A program made the translations under genes and the position numbers. A model generated the notes under the pieces. That model ran no database searches. It saw nothing but the letters and a program-made list of their open reading frames with translations, and was not told the DNA's origin. From a virus (Duplodnaviria > Caudoviricetes), in IMG/VR virus record IMGVR_UViG_3300031237_000006, positions 1-52,690 of that record: DNA of 52,690 nucleotides, one strand, 5' to 3'. Positions 8,010 through 11,642 of the stretch are shown here, piece by piece. Every line of letters starts with the position of its first letter. Position 1 is the first letter of the stretch.

Positions 8010-8197
8010 TCATATTAGGGATTGGATTGATCTTCTTCACATGGATGATTGCTATTCCTCTTGGGAGAGCAGCGGCACAGTGGGAAGATCGAGCAGGGTA
8101 TGCAAATAAATTATTCACATGGCGGGCTTGGCTACTTATGGGAGTAGGTTTTGTTCCAGCTATTACTGGGGGTCTTCTTCTCATTTATTATCTATGA
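8006..8197 (+). CDS. Small two-TM membrane protein
   Basis: Two hydrophobic segments; GGAGG RBS; ATGA overlaps. Confidence 0.6.
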   Translation: MIILGIGLIFFTWMIAIPLGRAAAQWEDRAGYANKLFTWRAWLLMGVGFVPAITGGLLLIYYL

Positions 8198-8916
8198 CTA
8201 CAACCTACTGTACGGACCCCTTCGAGCACTGGGTTCTCGACGACTTCCTCCCACCTGACCAAGCCTGGCGAGCGTATGCCCATTTCTACGGGGGAGACGG
8301 CACGTGGACGCACCGGAATCACCTGTACTGCCGGAACAAGGAGACGCGGACTCATGGCCTTCATCCTGACGTGGAGCAGGTTCTTCAGGGACTCGAAGGC
8401 CAAGCTCTCCGGCACTACTTTTCTGTCCTGACAGGACTCCCCGAGCTAGAGGCTGACCCTGACCGCTTCGGCGGGGGACAGCATGTCATTCGACGGGATG
8501 GGTTTCTCGGGATACATGCCGACTTCACGCACCATCCGACGACAGGGATGCGTCGGGCGTTGAACGTACTGATCTACCTGAACGCGCACTGGAAGAAAGG
8601 TGACGGCGGGGAGCTAGAGTTGTGGGCACCGGATATGAGCCGGTGTGTGACGACGGTCGAGCCGTTGTTCAACCGAGCTGTAGTCTTCAAGACCGGGCTG
8701 AAGAGTTTTCATGGTCACCCGGAGCCGTTGCGGGCGGAGGAGCGACGGAGCTTGGCGGTGTATTACTACGTGCCCGTAATCAAGGAACAGGCGCCGCCTG
8801 CTACGCCCTACGCATGGATTGGTGGACCTATTCTCAAGACGACCGACTACCGCCCCCGGCCATGGGAGTACGGACTGAGGATGCGGCGGTGGCTAAGCAA
8901 GAGGATCAAGAGATGA
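8194..8916 (+). CDS. 2OG-Fe(II) oxygenase (prolyl-hydroxylase-like)
   Basis: PFEHWVLDDFL, HAD iron motif, LNVLIYLN..W....GGELELW, P.FNRAVVF, FHG, R.SLAVYYY. Confidence 0.92.
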   Translation: MTTTYCTDPFEHWVLDDFLPPDQAWRAYAHFYGGDGTWTHRNHLYCRNKETRTHGLHPDVEQVLQGLEGQALRHYFSVLTGLPELEADPDRFGGGQHVIRRDGFLGIHADFTHHPTTGMRRALNVLIYLNAHWKKGDGGELELWAPDMSRCVTTVEPLFNRAVVFKTGLKSFHGHPEPLRAEERRSLAVYYYVPVIKEQAPPATPYAWIGGPILKTTDYRPRPWEYGLRMRRWLSKRIKR

Positions 8917-9035: not shown

Positions 9036-9206
9036 CCCCGGAGGAACGTGAATGGTATCCCGTTCTCCGCTATCTCGGGCCGGTGATCGAGTGGGGTATA
9101 CGCTGCTCGTGGTGGCTGCTTTGGTCATGGCGTGGACAGGATGGATGCTGTACCGCGTGTATGAGCGGCAGGGGATGATTCTTTACGTGCTTAACGGGGG
9201 GTGTCT

Positions 9207-9590
9207 ATGAGATATACGATTGCTGATTTTCAAGCATGTATCGAGAAGGTGAATCTTCCTTCTCCTATCAAAACTGTCTGGAAAGCGTGGGGACGTGGGC
9301 CTGGAGGGGCTAGGGGGCTTGGTTCGTGGGAAGGTGGATTTCTCTGTACGCTCCAGGATGGAAGCGATGTTTATATCGTCGGGAGCTGTGACTACACCGG
9401 CTGGGGCTGACAGGATGAAGCACAGATTATCCCCGTGCGGGATCGTTATAAATTCAAGTGTTCACGCAGTAAGGACTCACATTACGATAGTTATGATGAA
9501 GACTTTAAAAGTCATGTAGAGGACGAAGAGATCGACAGCGAGCCGATTGATCTCAATAACTGGATCAAATGGGGATGCCCAGAACCATGA
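9207..9590 (+). CDS. Putative selenoprotein (127 aa; in-frame TGA at 9408-9410 read as Sec)
   Basis: Frame stays open for 59 codons past the TGA to a stop that overlaps the next ATG; CDYTGWG*QD; hairpin downstream. Confidence 0.7.
9411..9447 (+). promoter_or_regulatory. Candidate bacterial SECIS element
   Basis: AUCCC-CGUGC-GGGAU hairpin (9429-9443); loop begins 23 nt after the UGA, with G at loop position 2. Confidence 0.5.
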
Positions 9591-9706
9591 TCCTCGGCAC
9601 CCTCCGGGTCTGCCCACGGTGTCAGCGGCATGTCTATCCGTATCCGACGTGGCGGCCTACGTGGTGGGCATGTCCGCGCTGCGAAGCGGTCTGGGAGGAT
9701 CTGTGA
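9587..9706 (+). CDS. Small zinc-ribbon protein (39 aa)
   Basis: MILGTLRVCPRCQRHVYPYPTWRPTWWACPRCEAVWEDL; two CPRC motifs. Confidence 0.6.
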   Translation: MILGTLRVCPRCQRHVYPYPTWRPTWWACPRCEAVWEDL

Positions 9707-9811: not shown

Positions 9812-10057
9812 ATGACCACCTCCCGTGATAGATTCTTGGCTCAGCTTGAACGATGCGTCCGGTATCAGAATGAGAATATCACGCTCCCTGATCCTCCACG
9901 CTCTAGTGAGTCAGTGCATGACACGAGCGAGTTCATCCCAATGGACCCGATGGGCAACGGGCAGCCGCAGGTTGAGGTAGAACGTGATGCGGTATGGGGA
10001 TTGAGGCCGCCGGGGGACGATGGACCGTCGGTCGTGGGGGATGGAGGATGGGCATGA
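9812..10057 (+). CDS. Hypothetical protein
   Basis: ORF coupled (ATGA) to the glycosyltransferase gene. Confidence 0.5.
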   Translation: MTTSRDRFLAQLERCVRYQNENITLPDPPRSSESVHDTSEFIPMDPMGNGQPQVEVERDAVWGLRPPGDDGPSVVGDGGWA

Positions 10058-10746
10058 TCCACTTCTGCATCGTTACGCTCGGGTCGGATGATCTGGTTGC
10101 TCTCGCGCTCAGGAGTATCGAGAAGTACGTCAGCACGCCGCATTCGGTGACGACGATTCATCTTCCGCTTGACACGGATGATCCGGCAGCGCATGGCCGG
10201 GCGATTGACGAATGGCGGAGACAGACCAAAGGGCTCGTCTGGGCTAATGACATTGTCGTCGTGATGGACCCGGACGTGGCGATCTTGAGCGGGTGGTGGG
10301 AAAAGGAATTGTTGAACGCGTTCAGCGACCTACAGGTCGGGATCTGGGGCGCCGGGTCTAAAGAAGACTTCGGCCCGCGTGTTCATGCGTCAATGATGGC
10401 GATCCGGGGGAGATTGTGGAATACGAGTAAGAAGAGTTTTATCCCAACAGATTCAACTCATCATCCCCGCGAGTGGCGTGATACTGGCGGGCTCTATTGC
10501 CAGAATGCAGTAGATAACCAATGGGCACTCAAACCAGTCGAACGCCGCCCTGATGATTGGGAAGGCTACTCTTGCTGGGCCATGCCGAATACCGGAGGCT
10601 CAGTCCTCCTCTGGACCCACCTCGGCGGGGGTTCACATAGCGACGTAACCCGGATGACGTGGTATCAGCGCATCAGACGGTATCAAGCGATCAGGGAACG
10701 GGAGCGATGGAAACGGCTGGTCAGTGAGCATCTGGGATGTTCCTGA
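10054..10746 (+). CDS. Putative GT-A fold glycosyltransferase
   Basis: N-terminal beta-alpha unit (FCIVT...LALRSIEKY), DxD motif VVMDPDV, late DTG and HLGGGS. Confidence 0.7.
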   Translation: MIHFCIVTLGSDDLVALALRSIEKYVSTPHSVTTIHLPLDTDDPAAHGRAIDEWRRQTKGLVWANDIVVVMDPDVAILSGWWEKELLNAFSDLQVGIWGAGSKEDFGPRVHASMMAIRGRLWNTSKKSFIPTDSTHHPREWRDTGGLYCQNAVDNQWALKPVERRPDDWEGYSCWAMPNTGGSVLLWTHLGGGSHSDVTRMTWYQRIRRYQAIRERERWKRLVSEHLGCS

Positions 10747-11642
10747 TCCTGGCTGCCTATATCACCCTCGGCTGCTACTTGATCCGCCGTCTCCCGTGGA
10801 ATGATAGTGAACGGTCCTATCTGGACGTGGACCATATAGAGATGGCACGGCGGTATCGGGAGGAATTCGGAGAGGTCATGCCACGGCGGATGCCATTTCG
10901 GCTTCCGGGGGAATATCTGATCTACGCTTGGGTGCCGAGACACCGGCCGGCACTCGGCCGAGTTGCGGCGCTCATCGTCAGCTCATTCGGCGTCTACCTG
11001 ATGATGGCATATGCGAGCCATCTGGCAGGGCCGAGAGCGGGGCTCATAGCCGGATTGATCGTCCTGTCGAGCCCGACGCTCGTCAGCCTGCTCTGCTCAG
11101 CGAGCTACGTAGCCCCTGTGGCGACCTTGTGGGTCGGGGGCTGGTACGCGCTCGACCTAGGCTGGCCGAGCATTGCACTCGGCTGCGCGGTCCTGCTCGC
11201 CCTGCTCAGGGCCTCGGCGTGGGGGATGAGCCTGGCCCTGCTCGCGTTCTTGCCCTACGGGTATAGTCTGCCTGCTGCCTGGCTGCTCATCGCATATCTC
11301 TGGGGCTGTCAGAGAGAGGTTGTTCTAAGTCAGGGCTGGGCTAGACTGATCCGCCGGGAGCCCTGTCCGGTCTGGGGGATACCCCAGGACGGATGGCACT
11401 ACGGCTTCCGGGTACTCGTGAGGCGTTATGAAGGGCTGATTCCGTGGGTGCTGTTTGCGGTGATTATGGGGGTCTATTCTTCGCAAGGAGCGCGGATATT
11501 AGCTATCACTGCGGTTGTATTCGTAGCCACTCATCTTCCACGGGCGTTGATCCGGCCGAAGTGGACGGTCGGCTATGTACCGGAGTTCCTGCTAGTCGCA
11601 GCAGTCGGAGTAAGCGCCCTACTCGCTCACGCTACTCCCTGA
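10737..11642 (+). CDS. Polytopic membrane protein, possible GT-C glycosyltransferase
   Basis: About 8-9 TM helices; acidic loop after TM1; R.PG.Y loop; GRAGLIAG-like motif; next to the GT-A gene. Confidence 0.55.
   Translation: MFLILAAYITLGCYLIRRLPWNDSERSYLDVDHIEMARRYREEFGEVMPRRMPFRLPGEYLIYAWVPRHRPALGRVAALIVSSFGVYLMMAYASHLAGPRAGLIAGLIVLSSPTLVSLLCSASYVAPVATLWVGGWYALDLGWPSIALGCAVLLALLRASAWGMSLALLAFLPYGYSLPAAWLLIAYLWGCQREVVLSQGWARLIRREPCPVWGIPQDGWHYGFRVLVRRYEGLIPWVLFAVIMGVYSSQGARILAITAVVFVATHLPRALIRPKWTVGYVPEFLLVAAVGVSALLAHATP

What the first reader, a model, noticed from the sequence alone, without database searches (positions are those of the whole stretch)
9207..9590. Probable phage-encoded selenoprotein: in-frame UGA in CDYTGWG-U-QD with a SECIS-like hairpin
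Seen: the ORF track stops this gene at TGA 9408-9410, but the frame stays open for 59 more codons (QDEAQIIPVRDRYKFKCSRSKDSHYDSYDEDFKSHVEDEEIDSEPIDLNNWIKWGCPEP). It ends at TGA 9588-9590, which overlaps the ATG of the next gene in the ATGA pattern used throughout this operon. Without readthrough, 176 nt of a tightly packed operon is unexplained. The TGA lies 7 codons after a Cys, and an AUCCC-CGUGC-GGGAU hairpin starts its loop 23 nt downstream with G at loop position 2. Established: bacterial SECIS elements lie just 3' of the UGA with a G early in the apical loop, and Sec usually aligns with a catalytic Cys. Inference: I recall CDYTGW-x-C motifs in viral hypothetical proteins (not verified here), which would put Cys at the UGA position. 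No selA/B/C/D is visible, so the phage would borrow host Sec machinery, possibly making the protein depend on selenium status.
Basis: partly seen in the sequence, partly recalled or inferred. Interest (0 to 1): 0.92.

Follow-up and report, generated by a model that had tools for sequence, protein, structure and literature searches.

The report
Phage gene encoding a probable selenoprotein
A small gene of this uncultured soil phage has an internal UGA "stop" exactly where its relatives have an almost invariant cysteine, and many related phage genes share that UGA plus an RNA hairpin after it, so it most likely encodes selenocysteine using the host's machinery.

Summary
Observation confirmed; interpretation supported. 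ORF 9207-9410 stops at TGA 9408-9410, but the frame runs on to TGA 9588-9590. All 29 full-length relatives in the first search have Cys at the TGA position, inside a near-invariant CDYTGWG-C-QDG motif. The family's C-terminal motif (D..P.DLN) lies downstream of the window's TGA, so the 127 codons are one gene. Six relatives' gene calls end at the same residue. Motif scans gave 53 distinct TGA-bearing homologues, in two sub-families, from phage and metagenome contigs. A hairpin of at least 5 bp whose loop starts 16-24 nt after the codon follows 50 of 53 TGA forms but 2 of 19 Cys forms (background 16%). All three MAGs holding TGA forms have selB. The phage itself has no sel genes or tRNAs.

Caveats:
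- The window's own hairpin (9429-9443) is weak and not significant alone.
- The published bSECIS model does not discriminate here.
- RNAalifold found no fixed-column consensus.
- The host is unknown and there are no selenium data.

Protein function is unknown: no Pfam or PHROG family and no significant fold match. No paper I could search reports a phage selenoprotein. This scan has noted phage selenoprotein candidates in other families on other DNA, but not this family.

The parts
9207..9590 (+). Whole selenoprotein gene: 127 codons (ATG 9207, Sec-UGA as codon 68, true stop TGA 9588-9590).
   Evidence: Searches give the frame. Searches show homologues of 107-150 aa covering 69-100% of the readthrough product (93% or more in 24 of the 29 full-length ones). 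In the AF2 model the parts on both sides of the TGA form one domain (pLDDT 82.9, pTM 0.79).
9387..9389 (+). Cys61 codon (TGT), 7 residues before the Sec site. It is a candidate resolving or partner thiol.
   Evidence: It is Cys in 81 of 90 motif-bearing family proteins, Asn in 7, Ala in 1 and Thr in 1. It is Cys in 7 of 7 TGA forms found by the scan that did not require it.
9408..9410 (+). In-frame UGA read as selenocysteine (residue 68), within CDYTGWG-U-QD.
   Evidence: It aligns with Cys in 29 of 29 full-length homologues, 67 of 68 rows of A4, and 96 of 101 family proteins held. Six homologous gene calls end at the preceding Gly. There are 53 distinct TGA forms.
9429..9443 (+). Apical stem-loop of the putative SECIS: AUCCC / CGUGC / GGGAU. 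It has 5 bp and a 5-nt loop that starts 23 nt after the UGA; the loop GU is the Val codon GUG 9435-9437.
   Evidence: It meets the published bSECIS constraints (for the model, for the test). It is not significant alone. The equivalent hairpin follows 50 of 53 TGA forms and 2 of 19 Cys forms.
9409..9462 (+). Extended predicted structure around the apical hairpin (lower stems), MFE -11.1 kcal/mol.
   Evidence: The z-score is -0.07, so the lower stems are unsupported.
9411..9587 (+). Coding region downstream of the Sec codon (59 codons), holding strand 71-77, helix 114-121 and the family's C-terminal motif (D110, P113, D115, L116, N117).
   Evidence: These five positions are nearly invariant in A1. 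The model block for residues 111-120 has pLDDT 97.
9587..9706 (+). Next gene, a 39-aa zinc-ribbon-like protein whose ATG overlaps the true stop (ATGA). It is context only.
   Evidence: Weak Pfam zinc-ribbon hits lie below the cut-off.

Best explanation
Window 9207-9590 is one gene for a 127-residue protein in which UGA 9408-9410 is decoded as selenocysteine. The phage brings only the cis signals: the UGA and a stem-loop about 20 nt downstream inside the coding sequence. It relies on the infected bacterium's SelB, tRNA-Sec, SelA and SelD.

Shown:
- a Cys/UGA pair at a near-invariant site;
- conserved coding sequence past the UGA;
- many independent UGA-bearing homologues;
- a position-specific hairpin that accompanies the UGA forms and not the Cys forms;
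- no Sec machinery in the phage.

Inferred:
- SelB binds that hairpin;
- Sec rather than another residue is inserted;
- the unknown host is Sec-competent.

The protein belongs to an uncharacterised family known only from uncultured phage, metagenome and MAG contigs. It is a small alpha+beta domain with the Sec or Cys at the tip of a beta-hairpin in the loop CDYTGWG-[U/C]-Q[D/E]G. Because Sec replaces a near-invariant Cys, and a second Cys usually lies 7 residues upstream, the most likely chemistry is a redox or nucleophilic active site, perhaps forming a selenenylsulfide. That last step is inference only.
For: Cys/Sec pair:
- 29 of 29 full-length homologues have Cys at the UGA column, as do 67 of 68 rows of A4 and 96 of 101 family proteins held.

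Translation past the UGA:
- The nearly invariant D110, P113, D115, L116 and N117 lie downstream.
- In 53 TGA forms the downstream frame stays open for 27-394 codons (median 39) with a conserved peptide.
- AF2 models of both sub-families are single domains spanning the site (pLDDT 82.9 and 87.6).

Other UGA forms:
- Six gene calls end at ...GWG. P0004 came and five (P0034, P0055, P0064, P0094, P0101) were among the 82 hits; all six ends were read. They include the two closest relatives (64-67% identity).
- Motif scans gave 74 matches, 59 of them distinct. I dropped 6 as chance hits lacking the family context, leaving 53.

Hairpin (at least 5 bp, dG at most -3, loop start 16-24 nt after the codon):
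- 50 of 53 TGA forms against 2 of 19 Cys forms. With GU at the loop start the counts are 42 of 53 against 0 of 19, Fisher p = 4.6e-10.
- Shuffles average 8.4 of 53 (maximum 14). Other codon positions in the same ORFs give 1152 of 7092.
- The positional profile peaks at 16-21 nt under three threshold sets: 48, 51 and 42 of 53, against 1, 3 and 0 of 19.
- It holds in each retrieval set: 8 of 8, 3 of 3 and 39 of 42. The hairpins use 39 distinct stem arms.
- It holds within the window's own sub-family: 9 of 9 type-A-like TGA forms against 1 of 9 type-A Cys forms (read).

Machinery:
- selB scores over the cut-off in 3 of 3 MAGs holding TGA forms, against 2 of 14 control genomes.
- tRNA-Sec scores over the cut-off in 2 of 3, beside selB in one of them.
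- The phage has 0 tRNAs, 0 Rfam hits and no selB, selA or selD.

Standard genetic code elsewhere in the window.
Against: - There are no selenium-labelling or mass-spectrometry data.
- The window's own hairpin is only 5 bp (-5.0 kcal/mol). It lies 3 nt further out than the family mode. The 60-nt fold is no better than shuffles (z = -0.07).
- 19 of 135 other in-frame TGAs in the window carry a similar hairpin.
- The published bSECIS model, as I implemented it, passes 15 of 19 Cys forms and 359 of 600 background positions (Fisher p = 0.07).
- RNAalifold on the codon-anchored alignment of 53 sequences gave no consensus pairs, because the registers differ. I therefore have no formal covariation statistic.
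- The loop GU coincides with a conserved Val codon that some Cys forms also have, so it is not independent evidence.
- I chose the hairpin criteria after seeing the TGA set.
- The host of this phage is unknown.
- The three MAG links rest on binning. L020 is on a separate 39.6-kb contig.
- The TGA in this genome was seen only in contigs of the probable source run. Runs X2-X4 do not cover it.
- Five divergent family members have Y, S, S, A or V at the site.
Confidence: 0.82

Rival explanations
1. A recent nonsense mutation (TGY to TGA, one base) has made this copy a pseudogene. Only a truncated 67-aa fragment is made, and the downstream frame has not yet decayed.
For: The window's hairpin is not significant alone. 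The TGA is confirmed only in the probable source run. A single third-position change turns Cys into TGA.
Against: The 59 downstream codons are intact and keep the family's invariant C-terminal residues. They end exactly at the ATGA junction with the next gene. The two closest relatives (64-67% identical) also end at the same residue. 53 distinct homologues share the TGA. A hairpin sits where the family has it.
Confidence: 0.07
2. The UGA is read through without selenocysteine, by near-cognate tRNA-Trp or tRNA-Cys or by a suppressor. The hairpin acts as a readthrough stimulator or pause site, giving a mixture of short and long products.
For: Nothing here identifies the inserted residue. In all 53 forms the UGA is followed by C, but this was imposed by the search pattern, and the Gln codon is conserved in Cys forms too. 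From recall, UGA-C is a leaky context in E. coli.
Against: The site is a near-invariant Cys, which is the hallmark of Sec rather than of generic readthrough. Neither the phage nor 5 other TGA-form phage records (0 of 5 over the cut-off) encode a tRNA-Sec. The loops (GGUC, GGU, AGUU, CGUG) and their spacing match the bacterial SECIS model. selB is present in 3 of 3 associated MAGs.
Confidence: 0.06
3. This is a split gene. Two separate polypeptides (1-67, and a C-terminal piece restarted at GTG 9435 in the hairpin loop) assemble after translational coupling.
For: the ORF listing shows a GTG-started 51-aa ORF at 9435-9590.
Against: Only 25 of 53 TGA forms have any in-frame ATG, GTG or TTG within 15 codons after the TGA. 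Nine of those have an SD-like sequence and 4 are ATG. Cys forms show the same rate (11 of 19). The equivalent codon is GTT or GTC in 30 of 53. The residues between the TGA and such a start (Q-D/E-G) are conserved.
Confidence: 0.02
4. The phage or its host uses a genetic code in which TGA is a sense codon (tables 4 or 25).
For: Reading TGA as sense more than doubles the open stop-to-stop frames of 100 aa or more: 336 frames (71,430 codons) against 152 (28,717). That is expected for any G+C-rich DNA.
Against: Under table 11 the window has long ORFs of up to 845 aa, and TGA is the commonest stop. The gene itself and its neighbours end on TGA in ATGA overlaps. The aligned residue is Cys, not Trp or Gly.
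Confidence: 0.01

Closest known systems
Bacterial selenoprotein genes with an in-ORF SECIS read by SelB. The prototype is E. coli fdhF; the consensus model is in PMC13188914, Fig. 2 legend (passages read).
   Same: An in-frame UGA pairs with Cys in homologues. A small stem-loop lies inside the coding sequence. The loop starts 16-37 nt after the UGA and has G, then G or U, at its start. The Sec machinery acts in trans. The frequent GGUC and GGU loops resemble the fdhF loop (that resemblance is recalled and comes from no call).
   Different: The gene is carried by a virus that has none of the machinery. The protein family is unknown to Pfam, PHROGs and NCBIfam. The window's hairpin is short and one codon further out than the family mode.
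Poxvirus glutathione peroxidases (molluscum contagiosum, fowlpox), the only viral selenoproteins named in the review PMC8310308 (passages read).
   Same: A virus-encoded selenoprotein is made with host Sec machinery. In fowlpox the SECIS lies in the coding region.
   Different: Those are eukaryotic viruses with captured cellular GPx genes and eukaryotic SECIS elements. Here it is a bacteriophage, a bacterial-type hairpin immediately after the UGA, and a family with no cellular homologue found.
Hypothetical-protein selenoprotein families found by Cys/Sec-pair searches of metagenomes, such as the Sargasso Sea study PMC1088965 (passages read).
   Same: The line of evidence is the same: TGA/Cys pairs, TGA homologues, a downstream stem-loop, and sporadic Sec forms among commoner Cys forms (in the window's sub-family).
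   Different: The motif is C-x6-U rather than CxxU or UxxC, and the fold is not thioredoxin-like. The type-B sub-family is mostly Sec (40 of 52 rows, with biased sampling). The context is phage.
Stop-codon-recoded phages, with genome-wide TGA or TAG reassignment.
   Same: A phage ORF runs through a standard stop codon.
   Different: Here a single codon in a single gene is recoded and the rest of the genome uses table 11. The aligned residue is Cys.

Membership tests
Bacterial-type selenoprotein gene (Sec-UGA plus bSECIS, SelB-dependent) | In-frame UGA aligned with a conserved Cys in homologues (Cys/Sec pair) | tested here: met
   29 of 29 full-length homologues. 67 of 68 rows in A4 and 96 of 101 family proteins held.
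Bacterial-type selenoprotein gene (Sec-UGA plus bSECIS, SelB-dependent) | TGA-containing homologues in other organisms at the same codon | tested here: met
   Six truncated gene calls. 53 distinct TGA forms after 6 chance hits were dropped from 59.
Bacterial-type selenoprotein gene (Sec-UGA plus bSECIS, SelB-dependent) | Coding conservation continues downstream of the UGA | tested here: met
   Nearly invariant D110, P113, D115, L116 and N117. A conserved type-B downstream peptide. Single-domain AF2 models.
Bacterial-type selenoprotein gene (Sec-UGA plus bSECIS, SelB-dependent) | Published bSECIS model: 3-9 nt loop, 4-16 bp stem, G in the first two loop positions, 16-37 nt spacing, MFE at most -7.5 (PMC13188914) | tested here: met
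   The window passes: loop CGUGC, 5 bp, spacing 23, constrained MFE -11.1. The model is not discriminating here: 50 of 53 TGA forms, 15 of 19 Cys forms and 359 of 600 background positions pass.
Bacterial-type selenoprotein gene (Sec-UGA plus bSECIS, SelB-dependent) | The stem-loop is specific to UGA forms and absent from Cys forms at the same place | tested here: met
   50 of 53 against 2 of 19. Background is 16%. The positional peak is at 16-21 nt under three threshold sets.
Bacterial-type selenoprotein gene (Sec-UGA plus bSECIS, SelB-dependent) | Compensatory base-pair covariation in a consensus structure | tested here: inconclusive
   RNAalifold on the ungapped alignment A3 gave 0 pairs because the registers vary, with i+j from 44 to 60. 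39 distinct stem arms among 50 hairpins imply compensation, but a structure-aware test was not run.
Bacterial-type selenoprotein gene (Sec-UGA plus bSECIS, SelB-dependent) | The host encodes selA, selB, selC and selD | tested here: inconclusive
   The host of this phage is unknown; there is no cultured relative. For 3 MAGs holding TGA forms, selB scores over the cut-off in 3 of 3 and tRNA-Sec in 2 of 3. Those links rest on binning only.
Bacterial-type selenoprotein gene (Sec-UGA plus bSECIS, SelB-dependent) | Selenium is actually incorporated at the UGA | not testable with these tools
   This needs 75Se labelling or mass spectrometry.
Thioredoxin-fold CxxU/UxxC redox selenoproteins | A CxxU or UxxC motif | tested here: not met
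   The motif is C-x6-U (Cys61 and Sec68).
Thioredoxin-fold CxxU/UxxC redox selenoproteins | A thioredoxin fold | tested here: inconclusive
   The models show a helix packed on a 4-stranded antiparallel sheet. No thioredoxin-like chain was among the listed matches. The best Z values of 6.4 and 5.3 are below the noise level.
WGR domain (PF05406) | Match to the Pfam HMM | tested here: not met
   No Pfam hit at E up to 10 for the window protein or at E up to 1 for 23 type-B members. A six-frame PF05406 search of the 3 genomes holding L020, L021 and L023 gave no match.
WGR domain (PF05406) | A shared fold | tested here: inconclusive
   VIA-align gave Z 4.5-5.1 (rmsd 3.5-4.2 A, 72-84 residues aligned) for type A and Z 4.2-5.1 (rmsd 4.2-4.9 A, 74-88 aligned) for type B. 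The Atlas structure search gave TM 0.48-0.54 for a Cys homologue. All are below the tools' stated noise levels.
Genome-wide TGA-recoded phage (tables 4 or 25) | TGA is used as a sense codon across genes | tested here: not met
   Long ORFs under table 11, with TGA the commonest stop.

The most novel reading that the evidence does not exclude
This is a widespread protein family, known only from uncultured phage, metagenome and MAG contigs, that has adopted selenocysteine at its single catalytic residue. One sub-family is predominantly Sec. Because the phage carries no Sec machinery, the UGA also works as a built-in sensor. Full-length active protein is made only in a Sec-competent, selenium-replete host, and otherwise a 67-residue fragment is made. 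That would couple an early phage function to host range and host selenium or redox physiology. It would make this one of the first selenoproteins of a virus of bacteria and a new selenoprotein fold.
Probability: 0.2. Interest if true: 0.9.

Novelty: new variant of a known kind. Interest (0 to 1): 0.82.

Why it matters
Selenocysteine decoding is regarded as a cellular trait, and the only viral selenoproteins in the review I read are two poxvirus glutathione peroxidases (PMC8310308, passages). Five prokaryotic selenoproteome papers from 2005-2026 that I searched by term never mention phages or viruses as carriers of selenoprotein genes.

If confirmed, a phage-borne family with dozens of UGA forms would show three things:
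- Phages exploit host SelB-dependent recoding.
- Gene callers systematically truncate such phage genes. The window's gene is stopped at its TGA, and six homologous calls in the databases end at the same residue.
- There is a new selenoprotein family and fold whose chemistry is unknown.

It also offers a host-prediction marker, since the host must be Sec-competent. It gives a natural set of about 50 diverse minimal SECIS hairpins for studying SelB recognition.

Tried and rejected
Function by sequence:
- Pfam, PHROGs, NCBIfam and PADLOC gave no family. One PHROG hit had E = 0.19.
- A PDB profile search gave a best E of 0.34.

Function by fold:
- Foldseek against PDB and BFVD gave nothing at E up to 0.001.
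- VIA-align gave best Z values of 6.4 and 5.3, below the noise level, matching cystatin, NTF2 and WGR-like arrangements.
- The Atlas gave only leads under 0.9 for a Cys homologue: DUF7574 in 31% of one cluster, DUF6575, and WGR by structure.

Function by context:
- There is no conserved neighbour. At most 3 loci of 72 share a neighbour family, which is RtcB-like.

Fusions:
- Three longer proteins (388-432 aa) carry the domain joined to extensions without Pfam domains.
- The exhaustive type-A search found no real hit over 179 aa.

Cultured phages:
- There was no type-A match, and only 5 metagenomic Caudoviricetes records for type B.
- The portal protein has no cultured relative, so no host could be inferred.

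RNA:
- RNAalifold gave no consensus.
- The published bSECIS model is non-discriminating here.
- I judged a covariance model of so short a hairpin too low in information and did not build one.

Reads:
- Runs X2, X3 and X4 do not cover 9206-9409. Only X1, the probable source, does, with no variant.

Other checks:
- Phage-borne tRNA-Sec scored over the cut-off in 0 of 5 other TGA-form phage records.
- No second selenoprotein candidate stands out in the window.
- On the tree of 47 Sec and 105 Cys rows, the fewest Sec/Cys changes is 10, but starred branches force only 1. The number of independent switches is therefore not established. Sampling is biased, because the Cys proteins came from a type-A query.
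- Six TGA-form rows too short at either end were left out of the tree.
- Supplements of the papers were closed, so lists of selenoprotein families in them could hold this family unseen.

Literature: six searches listed no paper on a natural bacteriophage selenoprotein. Subscription journals are not covered.
Full report
THE OBSERVATION. The window is a complete 52,690-bp uncultured virus record (CheckV completeness 100%). It is 57.8% G+C and uses the standard code: it has ORFs of up to 845 aa under table 11, and TGA is the commonest stop. ATG 9207 overlaps the stop of the upstream ORF in an ATGA. The frame from it meets TGA at 9408-9410, stays open for 59 more codons, and ends at TGA 9588-9590, which overlaps the ATG of the next ORF in another ATGA. 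A Cys codon lies 7 codons before the TGA. The hairpin AUCCC-CGUGC-GGGAU occupies 9429-9443, with its loop starting 23 nt after the TGA.

IS IT ONE GENE? The readthrough product found 30 homologues, and 29 of them are full length (107-150 aa) and span both halves. In their alignment, all 29 have Cys at the column of the TGA, inside the invariant G59, C61, D62, T64, G65, W66, G67 block (CDYTGWG-C-QDG). Five nearly invariant residues (D110, P113, D115, L116, N117) lie downstream of the TGA, and the window keeps them. An AlphaFold2 model made with 68 sequences (pLDDT 82.9, pTM 0.79) is a single alpha+beta domain. Strand 71-77 and helix 114-121, both encoded after the TGA, complete the fold. Across all family proteins held, the site is Cys in 96 of 101. 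Five divergent members have Y, S, S, A or V, and none has Trp or Arg.

OTHER TGA FORMS. P0004 and five of the 82 hits of an exhaustive phmmer search are 64-72 aa gene calls that end at ...CD[YT][TS]GWG, the residue before the site. They include the two closest relatives of the window protein, at 64-67% identity. I scanned for the motif with TGA in place of the Cys codon. That gave 7 loci in viral contigs, 4 in species-representative genomes and 62 in metagenome contigs. With the window, this makes 74 matches, 59 of them distinct. I dropped six as chance matches without the family context (L022, L036, L059, L061, L070, L071), leaving 53 distinct TGA forms. They fall into the window's sub-family (type A, C-terminal P.DLN motif; 6 by motif plus 3 similar), a second sub-family (type B, 37) and 7 others. 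In all of them the frame stays open after the TGA (27-394 codons, median 39). In type B the downstream peptide is conserved (Q-[DE]-G-G-x-S-x-V-A-x-T ... ER-x-RLG). A type-B model (pLDDT 87.6) has the same core, with the Sec at the tip of a beta-hairpin.

THE RNA ELEMENT. In one search nearly every TGA form showed a 5-8 bp stem starting 10-15 nt after the UGA, with loops such as GGUC, GGU, AGUU, GUU and CGUG[CU]. I then set criteria: at least 5 bp, dG at most -3 kcal/mol, and loop start 16-24 nt after the codon. These were met by 50 of 53 TGA forms but by only 2 of 19 distinct Cys-codon homologues at the same place. With GU at the loop start the counts are 42 of 53 against 0 of 19 (Fisher p = 4.6e-10). 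Shuffled sequences gave a mean of 8.4 of 53 (maximum 14), and other codon positions in the same ORFs gave 1152 of 7092, or 16%. Because I chose the criteria after seeing the data, I also computed a positional profile under three threshold sets. The loop-start bin 16-21 nt holds 48, 51 and 42 of 53 TGA forms against 1, 3 and 0 of 19 Cys forms. Other bins are at background, except the adjacent 10-15 nt bin, which is raised in the TGA forms only. The signal holds in each retrieval set (8 of 8, 3 of 3, 39 of 42), and the hairpins use 39 distinct inner stem arms. The contrast also holds inside type A: 9 of 9 TGA forms against 1 of 9 Cys forms, read. The window has one extra codon before the conserved Val, which is why its loop starts at 23 nt rather than 20.

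RESULTS THAT WEAKEN THE CASE.
- The window's hairpin alone is unremarkable, with z = -0.07 and 83 of 200 shuffles folding as well. In the window, 19 of 135 comparable in-frame TGAs have such a hairpin.
- The published bSECIS model (PMC13188914, Fig. 2 legend), as I implemented it, passes 50 of 53 TGA forms. It also passes 15 of 19 Cys forms and 359 of 600 background positions. Fitting the consensus therefore says little in this G+C-rich context.
- RNAalifold on the codon-anchored alignment predicted no pairs, because hairpin registers vary. I have no formal covariation statistic.
- The loop GU is a conserved Val codon that some Cys forms share.
- Contigs of independent runs do not cover the TGA. 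Only the probable source run does, at depth 11.4 without a variant.

MACHINERY AND HOST. The phage has no tRNA, no Rfam hit, and no selB, selA or selD. Five other TGA-form phage records have no tRNA-Sec over the cut-off. Three MAGs hold real TGA forms: one Planctomycetota and two Actinomycetes by record title. All three have selB over the curated cut-off, against 2 of 14 control genomes. Two of the three have tRNA-Sec over the cut-off, in one case beside selB. These links rest on binning, since L020 is on its own 39.6-kb contig. The host of this soil phage is unknown, and its SU10-type portal has no cultured relative.

RIVALS.
- A fresh nonsense mutation does not fit the intact, conserved downstream frame, the shared stop in the closest relatives, or the 53 TGA forms.
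- A split gene with a restart is not supported. Only 25 of 53 TGA forms have any start codon within 15 codons after the TGA, the same rate as Cys forms (11 of 19).
- A reassigned code is excluded.
- Non-Sec readthrough cannot be excluded without protein chemistry, but it does not explain why the site is the family's near-invariant Cys.

WHAT THE PROTEIN DOES. This is unknown. No Pfam, PHROG, NCBIfam or PADLOC family matches. There is no solved relative by sequence or by fold: the best Z values of 6.4 and 5.3 are below the noise level, with weak and recurrent WGR- and cystatin-like resemblance. The WGR HMM does not match. There are no conserved neighbours and no informative fusions. The gene lies in the early or replication arm, between a 2OG-Fe(II) oxygenase and a small zinc-ribbon ORF and downstream of a primase-polymerase/helicase and an HNH endonuclease. 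My working inference is a redox or nucleophilic active site at U68, possibly with Cys61 as partner. Cys61 is Cys in 81 of 90 motif-bearing proteins and Asn in 7.

NOVELTY. The mechanism is the known bacterial one. The carrier (a bacteriophage) and the protein family are new to the literature I could search. Six searches listed no natural phage selenoprotein. A 2021 review of viral recoding names only two poxvirus GPx genes (passages). Five selenoproteome papers contain no relevant mention of phage or virus (term look-ups). Supplements were closed. Earlier AI notes of this scan report phage selenoprotein candidates in other protein families on other genomes. Look-ups by sequence and by motif found none for this family. 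I did not test those notes, and they did not set my scores.

Noticed in passing
window 8119-8916 (+), 9994-10746 (+), 10737-11642 (+): A 2OG-Fe(II) oxygenase (PF13640, E = 6e-18) lies just upstream of the selenoprotein gene.
   Followed up: partly
window 9587-9706 (+): A 39-aa ORF with two CPRC pairs (zinc-ribbon-like; Pfam hits below the cut-off) is translationally coupled to the selenoprotein gene by an ATGA overlap.
   Followed up: no
L098, L099, L100, L102, L107, L006; P0043, P0046, P0054, P0072, P0075, P0095: A subgroup of Cys forms has Asn instead of the first Cys (W-N-D-Y-T-G-W-G-C). Only the second Cys, which is the Sec site, is near-universal. All 7 TGA forms found without requiring the first Cys have it.
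   Followed up: partly
tree: The type-B clade is mostly Sec (40 of 52 rows), while the window's type-A clade is mostly Cys (93 of 100). A selenoprotein family in which Sec forms predominate would be unusual. Sampling is biased, because the Cys proteins came from a type-A query and the TGA scans favoured the strict motif.
   Followed up: partly
P0112, P0113 (N-terminal domain), P0114 (C-terminal domain); L020, L043, L047, L051: Longer forms carry the domain joined to Ala-rich or otherwise unknown extensions of 150-300 residues without Pfam domains.
   Followed up: no
G002:C29:118292-121535: In the Actinomycetes MAG that holds L021, tRNA-Sec (67.8 bits) lies about 1.3 kb downstream of selB, as in a classic sel locus.
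   Followed up: no
window 9427-9655: A 2025 run from another study (X4) holds a 256-nt contig covering the downstream half of the gene with 2 differences. Relatives of this phage therefore occur in other samples. The contig stops 17 nt short of the TGA.
   Followed up: no
L083 and two Cys-form loci: An RtcB-like RNA ligase ORF is the only neighbour family shared by as many as 3 of 72 loci.
   Followed up: no
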